Below, one piece after another: positions 1 through 18,664 of a DNA stretch of 64,000 bases (the first letter of the stretch is position 1; each line of letters starts with the position of its first letter). Made by a program: the position numbers and the translations under genes. The notes under the pieces are model-generated. The model made no database searches, was not told the DNA's origin, and saw only the letters and a list, made by a program, of their open reading frames with translations. Origin of the DNA: Escherichia phage Gostya9. The stretch lies in sequence record NC_047979.1; one strand, given 5' to 3'.

Positions 1-408
1 AATACAGTAACGTCTATTATTTTCCAGTTTAAGTCAAGGTGACTTAGTGGTTATGCCCTGCGGTATACTGGGGACTCGGTTAGGTTAGGGTCATGACTTC
101 CTACCTTTTTGCTGCTACTCAACAGGAGTTATCGCGAATTACCTGTGCTATTGTGCACCATTAGTGGCATCTCTCATGCCAGCATTTCCCACTTTGTGGA
201 TAGTTTGAAAAACTACTCCGATATGGAGGGAGAACTTCACTATCCTAGAATACCTTCTAAAGTTCTTCTTTAGCCTGGACATAGTTAAATCGTAATAAAA
301 CTATTCAGCAGACTGGTTGGTTAGCCTGGAACCAACTACCGCGTGGTTTAGGCAGTGCGCAACTAACCTCGGAAGCTTTTACGTTAAAAGCACCAGTTAT
401 CCAGTTCT

Positions 409-480
409 TACCGATCGTAGGATTCGAACCTACATCTTCCACCAGTTACGGCTTGATAATACCGTTTATACTAGATCGGC
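409..480 (-). tRNA. tRNA-like element (possibly degenerate tRNA or pseudo-tRNA); anticodon not assignable
   Basis: Minus-strand sequence GCCGATC...GTAGG-TTCGAAT-CCTAC-GATCGGT-A gives a canonical T-arm (5-bp stem, TTCGAAT loop) and a 7-bp acceptor stem with G1-U71 and discriminator A. The 40 nt between them do not fold into standard D and anticodon arms by hand (only an ACGG/CCGT 4-bp stem with a 10-nt loop). It lies directly downstream of an early-type promoter at 557-585. Confidence 0.4.
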
Positions 481-556
481 AGTGTTACTACATAAGTGAT
501 TTCCACACCCCACTATTTATAACTTAGAGAAGAATTACTCTCTAATTTATGAATAT

Positions 557-15542: not shown

Positions 15543-15576
15543 CAGCCAGGTTGCTAGTCGACCTGGCTTTTATTTT
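15543..15576 (+). terminator. rho-independent terminator after nrdD
   Basis: Hairpin AGCCAGGT-TGCTAGTCG-ACCTGGCT followed by TTTTATTTT. Confidence 0.6.
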
Positions 15577-15636: not shown

Positions 15637-16017
15637 ATGGCTTTAAAACCGTATATAGTGGAGTCTACGTGTGGTGGTTTCCACCTGGGTGTGGATGATA
15701 TTGCTGAGGCTGTCTTTGCTGCCACAGGTGATTACTCTCATATAGAGGGTGCTGGATACCCCACCGTTATTGGTGATTGGGTGGAAACAAATCTAGATGT
15801 ATCGCCTTATAACCCGTATTGCTTGTTTGATGAAGACAGAGATGAAGTAAAATGTAATCTTGAATTTGTGTATAATAGAGTGTTAAAAGTATACCAACGT
15901 AGTCCCGAGGGATACGAAGATATTACTTGGAGTATTAAACAGTATCTTAAAGATGTATACTCTAGTTTTTCTGACGAAGGCCTAGAAACAGTTGCAGTGG
16001 AGTTTAATAATGACTAA
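15637..16017 (+). CDS. acidic hypothetical protein (126 aa)
   Basis: ATG with GAGGAGG RBS; acidic composition. Confidence 0.6.
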   Translation: MALKPYIVESTCGGFHLGVDDIAEAVFAATGDYSHIEGAGYPTVIGDWVETNLDVSPYNPYCLFDEDRDEVKCNLEFVYNRVLKVYQRSPEGYEDITWSIKQYLKDVYSSFSDEGLETVAVEFNND

Positions 16018-16243
16018 GAATGTGAAACACCTTAAATATCGTTTAATCTATAACGGACGTATGGAAACTGAAGAGCTAGCTCAATTAGCTATTAACTCTA
16101 ATGAGGTTATGGTGCGTGCGCTAGCAATTGAAAAGTTGCGGGCTTCTTATGAAAGTCGTATTATGGAACTAGAGGAGAAACTTTATGGACTTCTCGAAGC
16201 CGAAGCTAGAAGCAATTCAGAGGACAGGCCTACTAAGCAATAG
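16010..16243 (+). CDS. hypothetical protein (77 aa)
   Basis: ATG at 16010 overlaps the upstream stop (TAATGA coupling). Confidence 0.5.
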   Translation: MTKNVKHLKYRLIYNGRMETEELAQLAINSNEVMVRALAIEKLRASYESRIMELEEKLYGLLEAEARSNSEDRPTKQ

Positions 16244-16311
16244 AAGGTATGTATATAGGGAGTAATTTTACCTCAAAACATTATTGAAGGATTTAAGAGA
16301 GGGATTGTACA

Positions 16312-17139
16312 GTGCGTAGATTAATTATTATTAGCGGTGCAGGTTTGAGTGTTGAAAGTGGTGTACGAGCCTTCCGTACTGATACTGCTAGTGGTAAAGC
16401 ATTGTGGGATGATTATGATCTAGAAGAAGTATGTAATATTCATGCCTTTCGTGGTAATTTTTATCATAAAACTCATATGTTTTACAACAAGCGTCGTGAA
16501 GAGTTAGAAACTGTTGAACCCAATCTTGCACACTTGCGTATTGGTGAATGGCATAAGAAATACCAGGGTCAAGTAGTAAACTTGACTACCAACGTTGATG
16601 ACCTTATTGAGCGTGCTGGCGTTCCACATAGTGACATTCTGCACATTCATGGGTATTTAAAAGAGGTTGTTGTAGCTGATAGCTACAATAGTAGCAATAA
16701 ACGAGTTATTGATGTTGGGTATAGCTCTATTGACCCAGAGGATTATAAATGGGTTAAACCTAATGTAGTCTTCTTTGGTGAGCATGCTCCAGCGTACGCA
16801 GAAATGTACAATATTTTTGATGGTATTACCAGTCAAGATATGATTATTGTGGTTGGTTGCTCTAACCAAGTAATTAACTTCTACTGGGAATTATTCCCTG
16901 TTCTTAACCGTACTGCTGCGAAACTTATGGTGGTTAACTACTACGATATTACCCTCGCGGCAGAACCAGGCTATCAAGGTATGACTCGTAGTGAGATGTA
17001 CCAACTGGAAGAACGGGGTATTCCTTACTGGGGTAAAGGTGCGGTAGATGCTTTCAGTGACCCTGATTTTATTGCTCGTGTGGAAGCCCATTTAGAGGGT
17101 AGACCTTATATGCCGGGGAACAAATATGTCCATAGTTAA
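16312..17139 (+). CDS. Sir2-family (sirtuin-like) NAD+-binding protein lacking the zinc-ribbon module; probable GTG start
   Basis: Sirtuin motifs in order: GAGLSVESGVRAFR (GAGxS..SG..FR), TTNVDDL (TQNxD-like), HIHGY (catalytic His), PNVVFFGE, VVGCSNQV. No CxxC...CxxC Zn-binding insert. GTG at 16312 with AGAGAGGG upstream; no in-frame ATG before the GAG motif. Confidence 0.7.
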   Translation: MRRLIIISGAGLSVESGVRAFRTDTASGKALWDDYDLEEVCNIHAFRGNFYHKTHMFYNKRREELETVEPNLAHLRIGEWHKKYQGQVVNLTTNVDDLIERAGVPHSDILHIHGYLKEVVVADSYNSSNKRVIDVGYSSIDPEDYKWVKPNVVFFGEHAPAYAEMYNIFDGITSQDMIIVVGCSNQVINFYWELFPVLNRTAAKLMVVNYYDITLAAEPGYQGMTRSEMYQLEERGIPYWGKGAVDAFSDPDFIARVEAHLEGRPYMPGNKYVHS

Positions 17140-17308
17140 ATCTGTATGTACACATCCCGATGATATATTTGTATGGGCGGATGGTAGTTGGTGTTATCGA
17201 TGTGAGCTATGGGAAATGGACTATAAATCCGATGACTATGGTGTCATATATGTTGATACGGTTGAGTATGATACGTTCTTAGAAAGGAACAAAAATGGAA
17301 ATAAGTAA
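17126..17308 (+). CDS. small Cys-containing hypothetical protein (60 aa)
   Basis: ATG-initiated ORF overlapping the Sir2 stop; four Cys residues. Confidence 0.4.
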   Translation: MSIVKSVCTHPDDIFVWADGSWCYRCELWEMDYKSDDYGVIYVDTVEYDTFLERNKNGNK

Positions 17309-17681
17309 TACTCCAATTATTTTTCTAGACATTGATGGGGTGCTTAATTCGAGCATCTCCCATCACCATGCACCTGATGATGAAAAGGTTTTCTTTGGAA
17401 GTGACTGGGTTTTTAAACCGCTTCTCAAGGTTTTTCAGGACTTTATTCGTCCTTCTCCAATAATGATTGTTGGGGTATCCTCATGGTTCTCTGTCAGGAA
17501 TGAGATGGAGAACGTTCAGATTATGACCGGATTAGGTCTTATCGATCGTTTTCTTGGTATAACGGGTTTTACTGGTGGTGGGCTATCTAGAGGTAATTCT
17601 GTTCTTCACTTCGTTGAAAAGCATAAGCTCAAACATTGGTGCTATGATGTATCAGTATCCAACGGTTATAGTCAACGGTAG
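17295..17681 (+). CDS. HAD-like hydrolase, putative
   Basis: N-terminal IIFLDIDGVLN resembles HAD motif I (DxDG[TV]); the rest is unassigned. A second ORF (17575-17781) overlaps in another frame. Confidence 0.4.
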   Translation: MEISNTPIIFLDIDGVLNSSISHHHAPDDEKVFFGSDWVFKPLLKVFQDFIRPSPIMIVGVSSWFSVRNEMENVQIMTGLGLIDRFLGITGFTGGGLSRGNSVLHFVEKHKLKHWCYDVSVSNGYSQR

Positions 17682-17783
17682 AACTGGAATAAATCTTCAA
17701 GATTTAAGAGCTGTTAGCTATATGCTAGAATTTAGTCCAGATCTTGAAATGTGTAAAGCTCTACAACAATTTAAGGTGTAAAT

Positions 17784-18221: not shown

Positions 18222-18614
18222 ATGGAACAAGTATATTGGCGTCAGATTGATCCTAGTTTGGTGAAGAGTGCGGAGAAGCTGCTACAACGTTGGTTGGGGG
18301 TAAGACAAGCCTCCTTCACTTTTCCGGAGCAGCAAATAGACGATCCCTGTGTTGGTGTTTTCCTATCAGGCTACGCTAGGGAAGTGGAATTGGATTGGAA
18401 TGAATTGTCTGCTATGGGTTTAATTGTTGCACTAGATTTCTCTTTGTTCCATCCAAGTGGTTTGGCAATATGTCGTGTGCCTGATGACGGTTGTTCGCCC
18501 CATCTTTTACAGGTGGAAGATAATATTTGGGAGTACCCTCCAGATATTCTCAAAGAAGCTAAAGAACAATTAAATCGTGTTGGGATTTATGTTCCAGGCC
18601 TGAATGATGAATGA
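18222..18614 (+). CDS. hypothetical protein, paralog B of a tandem pair
   Basis: 130 aa; aligned blocks SFTFPEQQIDDPCVGV / NELSAMGLIVALDFSLFHP / VGIYVPGL mirror the upstream gene. Confidence 0.6.
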   Translation: MEQVYWRQIDPSLVKSAEKLLQRWLGVRQASFTFPEQQIDDPCVGVFLSGYAREVELDWNELSAMGLIVALDFSLFHPSGLAICRVPDDGCSPHLLQVEDNIWEYPPDILKEAKEQLNRVGIYVPGLNDE

Positions 18615-18638
18615 TTTTTATTAGCTGAACTCTGATTA

Positions 18639-18664
18639 CCGAGTCATTTTGGCTCGGTTTTCTC
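18639..18664 (+). terminator. rho-independent terminator
   Basis: Hairpin ACCGAG-TCATTTTGG-CTCGGT followed by TTTTCTC. Confidence 0.5.

What the first reader, a model, noticed from the sequence alone, without database searches (positions are those of the whole stretch)
16312..17139. Phage-encoded Sir2-family protein without the zinc ribbon, starting at GTG
The sirtuin NAD-binding and catalytic motifs are present (GAGxS..SG..FR, TxNVDxL, HG, VVFFGE, VVGxS), but the CxxC...CxxC zinc module of classical deacetylases is absent. Zn-less Sir2 domains in bacteria are often NAD+-hydrolysing effectors of anti-phage systems (Thoeris ThsA, DSR), so a phage copy could be an NAD+/ADP-ribose-manipulating or counter-defence enzyme. 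It sits in the nucleotide-metabolism block after nrdD, next to a HAD-like hydrolase. Recorded as a feature; what is worth testing is its activity.
Basis: partly seen in the sequence, partly recalled or inferred. Interest (0 to 1): 0.65.

Follow-up and report, generated by a model that had tools for sequence, protein, structure and literature searches.

The report
T5-type phage sirtuin lacking zinc cysteines
This is the already annotated Sir2/CobB-like gene of T5-like phages: a seemingly active sirtuin of the ordinary deacylase type that has lost its zinc-binding cysteines, is not related to the NAD-destroying defence sirtuins, and still has no experimentally known function.

Summary
ORF 16312-17139 (+, GTG, 275 aa) carries every sirtuin NAD-binding and catalytic motif. 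It has only two cysteines, neither in the zinc module.

The window is a Tequintavirus. The gene is T5.102 ("cobb"), 92-95% identical to annotated genes, and about 990 phage records hold homologues. Zinc-less phage Sir2/CobB proteins were noted in 2016. This phage sirtuin clade was predicted in 2022 to act in RNA repair.

I confirmed that context. T5-like phages place an RNA-repair-type HAD phosphatase and two DUF7415 genes downstream. rV5-like and related phages place RNA ligase, cREC, a kinase and a phosphoesterase upstream. Other lineages add Nudix, RlaP or NADAR.

The gene is under purifying selection (dN/dS 0.14-0.19). A published T5 knock-down screen scored it as making no fitness contribution.

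The most likely role is an accessory NAD+-dependent step linked to RNA-end repair. A protein deacylase role is almost as likely. The finding is already known and of low to moderate interest.

The parts
15544..15568 (+). Terminator-like hairpin after nrdD. It marks the upstream boundary of the transcription unit that holds the sirtuin.
   Evidence: T5 has an annotated terminator and the early promoter T5P31 at the matching place.
15637..16017 (+). First ORF of the unit (126 aa, T5.100-like). Function unknown.
   Evidence: phrog_11748, E = 1.5e-73. No Pfam family.
15992..16243 (+). Second ORF of the unit (83 aa, T5.101-like). Function unknown.
   Evidence: phrog_5236, E = 2e-44. Conserved in Epseptimavirus loci.
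16299..16302 (+). Shine-Dalgarno-like GAGG, 9 nt before the GTG start codon.
   Evidence: Read directly from the sequence.
16312..17139 (+). Sirtuin gene (275 aa, GTG start), orthologue of T5.102 'cobb'. Key residues:
- NAD-binding G9-A10-G11-x-S13 and F21-R22
- class III pair Y58/R61
- N94/D96
- catalytic H113
- F155-G156-E157
- S184 and N209
The small domain (residues about 114-150) has no zinc ligands.
17126..17308 (+). Small ORF (60 aa, T5.104-like) overlapping both neighbours. Function unknown.
   Evidence: phrog_5116, E = 2.8e-29. Conserved in T5-like and Sugarland-like loci.
17295..17781 (+). HAD_SAK_2 phosphatase gene (T5.105 orthologue). It is disrupted here by a 20-bp deletion near 17637, so it now reads as two frames: 17295-17681 and 17629-17781.
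   Evidence: The intact T5 protein matches PF18143 at E = 4e-20. The deletion and frameshift are shown. The deletion is absent from all 12 listed phage records.
17784..18212 (+). DUF7415 protein a (142 aa, T5.106 orthologue).
18222..18614 (+). DUF7415 protein b (130 aa, T5.107 orthologue), a paralogue of the preceding gene.
   Evidence: PF24187, E = 4.9e-29. It is 30% identical to paralogue a. T5.107 scored 'Fit' (p = 0.02) in the T5 knock-down screen.
18638..18658 (+). Terminator-like hairpin that ends the unit.
   Evidence: T5 has an annotated terminator at the matching position.

Best explanation
The ORF is the T5-family sirtuin, T5.102. It belongs to a phage-specific branch of the canonical, CobB/SIRT5-like (class III-like) sirtuins. 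The branch has lost the four zinc cysteines but keeps the small beta-sheet module and the complete active site.

It is an accessory early gene in a seven-ORF unit: T5.100-like, T5.101-like, sirtuin, a small ORF, an RNA-repair-type HAD phosphatase, and two DUF7415 proteins.

Shown:
- family, fold and conserved catalytic residues
- purifying selection
- gene neighbourhoods
- no scored fitness contribution in one knock-down screen

Inferred chemistry, ordinary for sirtuins: NAD+ binds, an oxygen nucleophile of the substrate attacks C1' of the nicotinamide ribose, and nicotinamide leaves. His113 then activates the ribose 2'-OH to resolve the ADP-ribosyl adduct.

Inferred substrate: orthologues in several unrelated phage lineages sit inside RNA-healing and RNA-sealing cassettes. 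I therefore favour a role coupled to repair of nuclease-damaged (t)RNA, which would be a counter-defence function. The most specific proposal is the published one: a Tpt1/KptA-like removal of a terminal or junction 2'-phosphate by transfer to ADP-ribose. The neighbouring HAD, Nudix, NADAR or cREC enzymes would then prepare the RNA end or clear the ADP-ribose product.
For: Family and active site:
- PF02146.
- CobB, Sir2Af1 and SIRT5 are the best sequence and fold matches.
- The following residues are invariant in 38 clade members: G9, A10, G11, S13, F21, R22, Y58, R61, R62, N94, D96, H113, G114, F155, E157, S184, N209.
- The AF2 model is confident, with pLDDT 88 and pTM 0.87. Strands 114-122, 131-134 and 147-152 are kept in the zinc-less module.

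Evidence that the gene is functional: dN/dS is 0.14-0.19 against T5 and DT571/2.

Context, all checked here:
- T5-like loci have the sirtuin, a small ORF, HAD_SAK_2 (PF18143, 4e-20) and two DUF7415 genes. The HAD lies 0-460 nt downstream on the same strand in about 28 T5-like loci.
- rV5 has Rnl1 (PF09511), cREC (PF20274) and then the sirtuin, with 8-nt spacing. An AAA_33 kinase and a calcineurin-type phosphoesterase lie alongside.
- FBKp34 and 12 or more related loci have phosphoesterase, Rnl1, cREC, kinase, the sirtuin, and then MazG.
- Jumbo phage 121Q has the sirtuin overlapping a Nudix gene, with cREC 558 nt downstream.
- A T4-like metagenomic contig has RlaP, the sirtuin, NADAR and HD.

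The same clade and prediction are published (PMC9503650, section 3.7.3).

The Tpt1 mechanism has two steps: attack on NAD+ C1'', then attack by the ribose 2''-OH. These parallel the two sirtuin steps (established knowledge plus my inference).
Against: - No sirtuin is known to act on RNA.
- At about 30 key positions the phage clade matches its zinc-containing cellular relatives. This includes the acyl-lysine pocket: C41, Y58, R61, V95, V152 and F155 correspond to CobB A76, Y92, R95, I131, V187 and F190. Nothing in the pocket looks rebuilt for a nucleic acid.
- All 38 clade members are acidic, with pI 4.6-6.05 and net charge -5 to -20. That is unusual for a polynucleotide-binding enzyme.
- T5-like genomes show no RNA ligase, cREC or polynucleotide kinase by BLAST in the window or in DT571/2 positions 1-62 kb.
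- The HAD partner is absent in Sugarland-like phages and broken in this window, while the sirtuin stays intact.
- About 14 of 66 surveyed loci show none of the partner families.
- Nudix, NADAR and HAD neighbours could equally clear O-acyl-ADP-ribose made by a deacylase.
Confidence: 0.4

Rival explanations
1. It is an ordinary NAD+-dependent protein lysine deacylase, like CobB. Given the Y-x-x-R pair it may prefer acidic acyl groups such as succinyl or malonyl. Expressed early, it would strip acyl marks from host or phage proteins so that acetylated or succinylated hosts, for example stationary-phase cells, support infection. The Nudix, NADAR and HAD neighbours would clear O-acyl-ADP-ribose.
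For: - The full deacylase catalytic set and acyl-lysine pocket are conserved, including the class III Y58/R61 pair.
- The NCBIfam best hits are deacylase models.
- The nearest zinc-containing relatives include cellular proteins. One lies in a Mollicute-like contig next to a lipoate-protein ligase.
- The acidic pI resembles that of CobB.
- The same reading was proposed for Vibrio phage homologues (PMC5107563).
Against: - It does not explain why orthologues sit in the same operons as RNA ligase, cREC, kinase, RlaP and RNA-repair HAD genes in several unrelated phage lineages.
- All NCBIfam deacylase scores lie far below the curated cut-offs, for example 103 against 243 bits.
- The peptide-clamping motifs deviate. 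The G of FGE is replaced in several members, and V-x-P becomes V-I-N-F. The wider family shares these deviations.
- The host already has CobB.
Confidence: 0.35
2. It is a free NAD+ glycohydrolase, or an enzyme that manipulates NAD or ADP-ribose signals. It would consume NAD+ or destroy or produce a nucleotide signal to counter NAD-based defences such as Thoeris or DSR.
For: - It is a zinc-less sirtuin domain with intact NAD+ binding.
- Some orthologues have ADP-ribose-processing neighbours, Nudix and NADAR.
- T5-like phages are known to carry NAD+-restoring modules elsewhere (PMC13464706).
Against: - There is no SLOG, TIR, HerA, pAgo or STAND partner or fusion.
- The catalytic His and the acyl pocket are conserved, which points to a co-substrate rather than water.
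- A phage that uses an NAD+-dependent DNA ligase gains nothing obvious from wasting NAD+.
Confidence: 0.08
3. It is a decaying or non-catalytic remnant. Loss of the structural zinc would have inactivated the enzyme, and the ORF persists by chance or as a binding protein.
For: - In classical sirtuins the zinc is needed for stability (established knowledge).
- The T5 knock-down screen scores the gene as 'Not Fit'.
- Phage PSa2 carries it split into two CDS.
Against: - dN/dS is 0.14-0.19.
- All catalytic residues are invariant over sequences down to about 50% identity.
- The zinc-less module is predicted with confidence and has its own conserved D-V-G-Y motif.
- Homologues occur in about 990 phage records.
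Confidence: 0.04

Closest known systems
T5.102 'cobb'/Sir2-like protein of phage T5 and the phage sirtuin clade of Iyer et al. 2022 (PMC9503650); Sir2/CobB of Vibrio phages phiSt2 and KVP40 (PMC5107563)
   Same: - The same gene: 92-95% amino-acid identity to T5 and DT571/2, in the same position after nrdD.
- The same zinc-less small domain that was noted for the Vibrio phage proteins in 2016.
- The same sirtuin plus 'Swiss-army-knife' HAD neighbourhood that was described for the T5-like phage SP15.
   Different: - GTG instead of ATG as the start codon (shared with DT571/2).
- A slightly different C-terminal tail, because about 166 bp present in T5 are missing here.
- The HAD partner is frameshifted in this window.
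Class III sirtuin deacylases: E. coli CobB (1S5P, 6RXJ), Sir2Af1 (1ICI), human and zebrafish SIRT5
   Same: - Rossmann domain plus small domain.
- The GAGxS, FR, N/D, HG and FGE motifs.
- The Y-x-x-R pair that binds acidic acyl groups in SIRT5 and CobB.
- Hydrophobic pocket residues.
   Different: - Only 24-28% identity.
- No zinc ligands.
- TQN becomes TTN, GTSG becomes GCSN, and VYP becomes VINF.
- An extra C-terminal helical extension of about 60 residues.
- Encoded by a phage and linked to RNA-repair genes.
Tpt1/KptA RNA 2'-phosphotransferase
   Same: A proposed functional analogy only. Both use NAD+ as an ADP-ribose donor in a two-step reaction and are associated with RNA ligases (PMC9503650; established knowledge of Tpt1).
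   Different: An unrelated fold and sequence. No Tpt1-like match appeared in any search. Tpt1-like activity of any sirtuin is untested.
Defence-system SIR2 NADases (ThsA, DSR1/2, Sir2-HerA, KomC, Avs5, SPARSA)
   Same: They share the basic Sir2 Rossmann fold and NAD+ binding. Many lack the classical zinc ribbon.
   Different: - A different Pfam family (SIR2_2), with no hit here.
- No PADLOC hit.
- No sensor or partner domains.
Class M sirtuins (SirTM, macrodomain-linked ADP-ribosyltransferases)
   Same: Both are microbial sirtuins whose main activity may be ADP-ribosyl transfer rather than deacylation.

Membership tests
Sirtuin / SIR2 family (Pfam PF02146) | Profile match above the curated threshold | tested here: met
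   91.8 bits against a 24-bit cut-off, E = 6.8e-26, covering profile positions 1-178 of 180.
Sirtuin / SIR2 family (Pfam PF02146) | NAD-binding and catalytic motifs: GAGxS, FR, TxNxD and the catalytic HG | tested here: met
   G9-A10-G11-x-S13, F21-R22, N94/D96 and H113-G114 are present and invariant in 38 homologues.
Sirtuin / SIR2 family (Pfam PF02146) | Structural zinc bound by four Cys (CxxC...CxxC) in the small domain | tested here: not met
   There is no Cys between H113 and K149, and the protein has only C41 and C183. The module's beta-strands are still predicted. Relatives in the same family keep CxxC...CxxC.
Sirtuin / SIR2 family (Pfam PF02146) | Two-domain sirtuin fold | tested here: met
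   [not shown]
Class III sirtuins (CobB/SIRT5 type) | The Y-x-x-R pair in the acyl pocket, and a small residue at the CobB A76 / SIRT5 A86 position | tested here: met
   Y58 and R61 are invariant. C41 aligns with CobB A76.
Class III sirtuins (CobB/SIRT5 type) | Equivalog-level similarity to CobB (NCBIfam cut-offs) | tested here: not met
   The best scores are 103 bits against a cut-off of 243, and 94 against 320. It is a distant relative, not a CobB orthologue.
Class III sirtuins (CobB/SIRT5 type) | NAD+-dependent lysine deacylase activity | not testable with these tools
   No biochemical study of any phage sirtuin was found in the searchable literature.
Phage RNA-repair-associated sirtuin clade (Iyer et al. 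2022) | Close sequence relationship to the sirtuins of rV5-like, T5-like (SP15) and jumbo phages | tested here: met
   It is 57% identical to the rV5 sirtuin, 62% to FBKp34, and 38% to 121Q over 74% of the length. All fall in one alignment that shares the D-V-G-Y and zinc-less features.
Phage RNA-repair-associated sirtuin clade (Iyer et al. 2022) | Conserved neighbourhood with RNA-end-processing genes | tested here: met
   HAD_SAK_2 lies downstream in T5-like loci. Rnl1, cREC, a kinase and a phosphoesterase occur in rV5 and FBKp34-type loci. Nudix with cREC occurs in 121Q, and RlaP with NADAR in L016. In this window the HAD copy is frameshifted.
Phage RNA-repair-associated sirtuin clade (Iyer et al. 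2022) | Activity on RNA 2'-phosphate ends | not testable with these tools
   This is a published prediction only.
Defence SIR2 NADases (ThsA, DSR, Sir2-HerA; Pfam SIR2_2, PADLOC models) | Profile match to SIR2_2 or to defence-system models | tested here: not met
   No SIR2_2 hit at E <= 1. PADLOC returns only a spurious REase_I hit at E = 0.019.
Defence SIR2 NADases (ThsA, DSR, Sir2-HerA; Pfam SIR2_2, PADLOC models) | Closest structural neighbours are defence Sir2 proteins; a sensor or partner domain is present (SLOG, HerA, pAgo, STAND, tail-tube-binding CTD) | tested here: not met
   [not shown]
Class M sirtuins (SirTM) | QG replaces the catalytic HG; linked to a macrodomain | tested here: not met
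   H113-G114 is invariant. There is no macro neighbour. The defining features are taken from PMC4518038.

The most novel reading that the evidence does not exclude
The phage-specific zinc-less sirtuin clade, including this T5-type gene, could be the first sirtuin that works on RNA. It would use NAD+ to remove a 2'-phosphate from nuclease-cut tRNA or mRNA, or to resolve some other blocked RNA end, as an analogue of Tpt1/KptA. This would be part of a phage counter-measure against RNA-cleaving host defences. A more speculative variant, without direct support, is deacylation of N-acetylated aminoacyl-tRNA made by GNAT toxins.
Probability: 0.3. Interest if true: 0.8.

Novelty: already known. Interest (0 to 1): 0.3.

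Why it matters
Sirtuin genes occur in about a thousand sequenced phages, among them T5-like, rV5-like, phi92-like, Vibrio T4-like and jumbo phages. Many of these are candidates for phage therapy, yet no phage sirtuin has been assayed.

If the RNA-repair prediction is right, sirtuin chemistry would extend from proteins to nucleic acids. It would also define a new phage counter-defence step against tRNA- or RNA-cleaving immunity.

If the protein is a plain deacylase, it would show that phages reset host protein acylation.

Either way, the clade shows that the sirtuin zinc site, usually regarded as essential for structure, can be lost while the enzyme stays under selection.

For this particular window the finding adds nothing beyond the existing annotation and literature.

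Tried and rejected
- Informative domain fusions. Ten long homologues were scanned. They showed only SIR2, or SIR2 with WG or RHS repeats, which says nothing about function.
- RNA ligase, cREC, kinase, phosphoesterase or Nudix homologues in the T5-like genome. tblastn of the window and of DT571/2 positions 1-62 kb found only the HAD gene. The annotations list no RNA ligase.
- Biochemical or genetic studies of phage sirtuins. Seven literature searches found none. The only experimental datum is the T5 CRISPRi-ART screen. That screen has false negatives: the replication-origin-binding gene T5.108 also scores 'Not Fit'.
- Whether zinc loss is special to phages. It is not clear-cut. Zinc-containing and zinc-less forms are mixed within the same family. 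One 4-Cys relative lies in a Mollicute-like cellular contig and another on a phage-like contig.
- Net charge as a test for RNA binding. All clade members are acidic. This is suggestive but not decisive.
- I did not test whether the window carries the NARP3 (PnuC and NadR) module described in T5-like Bas30. None is annotated in the matching 62 kb of DT571/2.
Full report
**Observation.** The window holds an ORF at 16312..17139 on the + strand, with a GTG start, encoding 275 aa. A GAGG motif lies 9 nt upstream of the start. The start codon position is supported by 37 homologues that all begin M-R-R-[LIV]. T5 has ATG at the same codon, and the closest relative, DT571/2, has GTG. Most of these residues are invariant across the 38 aligned sequences; the G of FGE is an exception. 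The protein has two cysteines, C41 and C183. None lies in residues 114-149, the stretch that aligns with the Cys-bearing zinc module of E. coli CobB.

**What the window is.** The region is a T5-like phage of the genus Tequintavirus. Window positions 8000-30000 match Escherichia phage DT571/2 at 96.4% over 94% of the length. The ORF is the orthologue of the T5 gene annotated 'cobb: putative transferase' or 'Sir2-like protein' (T5.102), at 92% amino-acid identity. It is 95.5% identical in DNA to the DT571/2 sir2 gene. By tblastn, 993 phage records hold a homologue. They include T5-like, rV5-like, phi92-like, Mydo-like and Stephanstirm-like phages, Vibrio T4-like phages and jumbo phages.

**Family placement.**
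- Pfam gives only the canonical SIR2 family PF02146 (E = 6.8e-26) and no SIR2_2 hit.
- The NCBIfam best hits are CobB-type deacylase models, all far below their equivalog cut-offs.
- PHROG 2162 'Sir2' matches at 2e-119.
- PADLOC gives no defence-sirtuin match.
- Against PDB sequences the best matches are E. coli CobB (2.7e-18), Sir2Af1, Sir2Af2, SIRT5 and Sir2Tm.
- An AlphaFold2 model built on 38 sequences is confident, with pLDDT 88 and pTM 0.87.
- Foldseek ranks CobB first (E = 1.1e-17, TM 0.84). The next matches are Sir2Af1, SIRT5, SIRT2 and Sir2Tm.

So the protein is a canonical-type sirtuin, not a Thoeris- or DSR-type NADase.

**Active site and the missing zinc.** The clade alignment keeps G9, A10, G11, S13, F21, R22, Y58, R61, R62, N94, D96, H113, G114, F155, E157, S184 and N209 invariant. 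Aligned to CobB, the pocket residues A76, Y92, R95, I131, V187 and F190 correspond to C41, Y58, R61, V95, V152 and F155. All of these are invariant. Y58 and R61 form the class III signature that binds acidic acyl groups in SIRT5 and CobB (established knowledge).

The small domain keeps its beta-strands (114-122, 131-134, 147-152) at high confidence. It has its own conserved D-V-G-Y motif but no Cys or His ligands.

An exhaustive search of 1.84 billion cluster representatives found 3121 relatives. Among the best 150, close relatives have 0-1 Cys in this segment. More distant relatives have CxxC...CxxC around the same 'IGY' motif. One 4-Cys relative lies in a Mollicute-like contig beside a lipoate-protein ligase. 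Another lies on a phage-like contig. Zinc loss therefore happened inside a family that ancestrally bound zinc. Clade-specific changes near NAD+ are TQN to TTN and GTSG to GCSN.

**Is it functional, and is it needed?** dN/dS is 0.14 against T5 and 0.19 against DT571/2, which indicates purifying selection. In the published genome-wide CRISPRi-ART screen of T5, T5.102 is 'Not Fit' (score -4.08, p = 0.72). T5.105 (HAD) and T5.106 are also 'Not Fit', while T5.107 is marginally 'Fit'. The screen has false negatives, because T5.108, the replication-origin-binding gene, is also 'Not Fit'. Phage PSa2 carries the sirtuin split into two CDS. Together these results point to a conditionally useful accessory gene.

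**Context.** Terminator-like hairpins at 15544-15568 and 18638-18658 bracket a seven-ORF unit. It matches the early promoter and terminator annotation of T5. Its members are, in order:
- two small unknown ORFs
- the sirtuin
- a 60-aa ORF
- a HAD gene
- two DUF7415 paralogues

The intact T5 HAD is PF18143 'HAD domain in Swiss Army Knife RNA repair proteins' (4e-20). In this window the HAD carries a 20-bp deletion near 17637, between TGGTG repeats. The deletion shifts the frame and is not seen in any listed relative.

Orthologous sirtuins in other lineages have these neighbours:
- rV5 has Rnl1-type RNA ligase, cREC and then the sirtuin, with an AAA_33 kinase and a calcineurin-type phosphoesterase alongside.
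- FBKp34 has phosphoesterase, Rnl1, cREC, kinase, the sirtuin, and then DNA ligase and MazG.
- 121Q has the sirtuin overlapping Nudix, with cREC just downstream.
- A T4-like contig has RlaP, the sirtuin, NADAR and HD.

A home-made profile survey covered 66 loci. About 30 carried HAD_SAK_2, almost all of them T5-like loci that also have DUF7415. Thirteen to sixteen carried the Rnl1, kinase, phosphoesterase and MazG set, and 11 carried cREC. About 14 showed none of these families. Many of the loci are close relatives, so these numbers count sequences, not independent events. T5-like genomes themselves show no RNA ligase, cREC or kinase. Sugarland-like phages keep the sirtuin and DUF7415 but lack the HAD.

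**Literature.** Skliros et al. 2016 (PMC5107563) already reported that the Sir2/CobB proteins of Vibrio phages phiSt2 and KVP40 lack the zinc ligand. They listed T5 as a carrier of the gene and proposed deacetylation of host enzymes. Iyer et al. [quoted passage not shown] They described three neighbourhood types, including the T5-like phage SP15 with the Swiss-army-knife HAD. They predicted a KptA-like role in removing RNA 2'-phosphates. I found no biochemical work on any phage sirtuin.

**Mechanism.** What is shown:
- a canonical sirtuin fold with an intact NAD+ and catalytic centre
- no zinc site
- purifying selection
- an early operon
- a recurrent link to RNA-end-processing and ADP-ribose-processing genes
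- no scored fitness contribution in one knock-down screen

What is inferred is the chemistry. A substrate oxygen attacks C1' of the NAD+ ribose and nicotinamide leaves. H113 then activates the 2'-OH to resolve the adduct.

The substrate is undetermined. The operon evidence from several unrelated phage lineages favours a role coupled to RNA repair. The specific published proposal is Tpt1-like 2'-phosphate removal, whose two steps parallel the sirtuin steps. I give this about 0.4.

Four points count against it:
- The acyl-lysine pocket is unchanged relative to cellular relatives.
- All clade members are acidic, with pI 4.6-6.05.
- T5-like phages lack an RNA ligase.
- The sirtuin persists where the HAD is absent or broken.

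These points favour an ordinary protein deacylase, which I put at about 0.35. In that case the Nudix, NADAR and HAD neighbours would clear O-acyl-ADP-ribose. A free NADase or a signal-manipulating enzyme (about 0.08) has little support, and a dead remnant (about 0.04) has less.

**Verdict.** It is an already annotated and already discussed gene. The zinc-less feature and a functional hypothesis are both in print. Interest is low to moderate (0.3). The residual value is that a simple in vitro assay could decide between a protein-directed and an RNA-directed sirtuin.

Noticed in passing
window 17295-17781 (deletion near 17637): The HAD_SAK_2 phosphatase gene downstream of the sirtuin has a 20-bp deletion between TGGTG repeats, relative to T5 and DT571/2. 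The deletion shifts the frame and removes the W-C-V-L-D-D-A-G region. All 12 listed best phage records span 119-121 nt where the window has 99-101, so none shares the deletion. It may be a real loss or a sequencing error.
   Followed up: partly
[not shown]
   Followed up: partly
L002:17790-18296 (DT571/2 gp101), L009:4656-5171 (S114 gp046): RefSeq annotates the HAD gene (T5.105 orthologue) as 'Sir2 (NAD-dependent deacetylase)'. This appears to be an error propagated from the label of phrog_18062, which matches the C-terminal half of the HAD at 3.5e-58. That profile hits the true sirtuin only weakly, at 1.9e-06 over residues 169-216.
   Followed up: partly
window about 17108-17115, against L001:9800-9990: The window lacks about 166 bp that T5 has between the 3' end of the sirtuin gene and the small ORF. 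T5 therefore has two copies of the phrog_5116 small ORF (T5.103 and T5.104), while the window and DT571/2 have one. The sirtuin C-terminal tail differs accordingly.
   Followed up: partly
L008:5001-5815 (Escherichia phage PSa2): In PSa2 the sirtuin gene is annotated as two overlapping CDS, SIRT5_1 and SIRT5_2. That means it is frameshifted in the record. A 64-aa ORF just upstream is labelled 'nicotinamide mononucleotide transporter', which looks doubtful for so short a protein.
   Followed up: no
L011:2060-5427 (metagenomic contig; P0133): A zinc-containing (4-Cys) relative, 46% identical, lies in a Mollicute-like contig two genes after a lipoate-protein ligase (LplA). The tool's translation did not reproduce the protein, which fits an alternative genetic code. 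The position hints at a delipoylase-type role for cellular members of this sirtuin family.
   Followed up: no
window 408-481 (-): ARAGORN finds a single tRNA gene in the window, tRNA-Ser with anticodon ACT. It lies at the edge of what is the tRNA-rich region in T5-like genomes.
   Followed up: no
(phage collection): One phage record matches part of the sirtuin gene at >=99% identity. It was not among the listed best-coverage hits. It may be a fragment of the source phage or of a very close relative.
   Followed up: no
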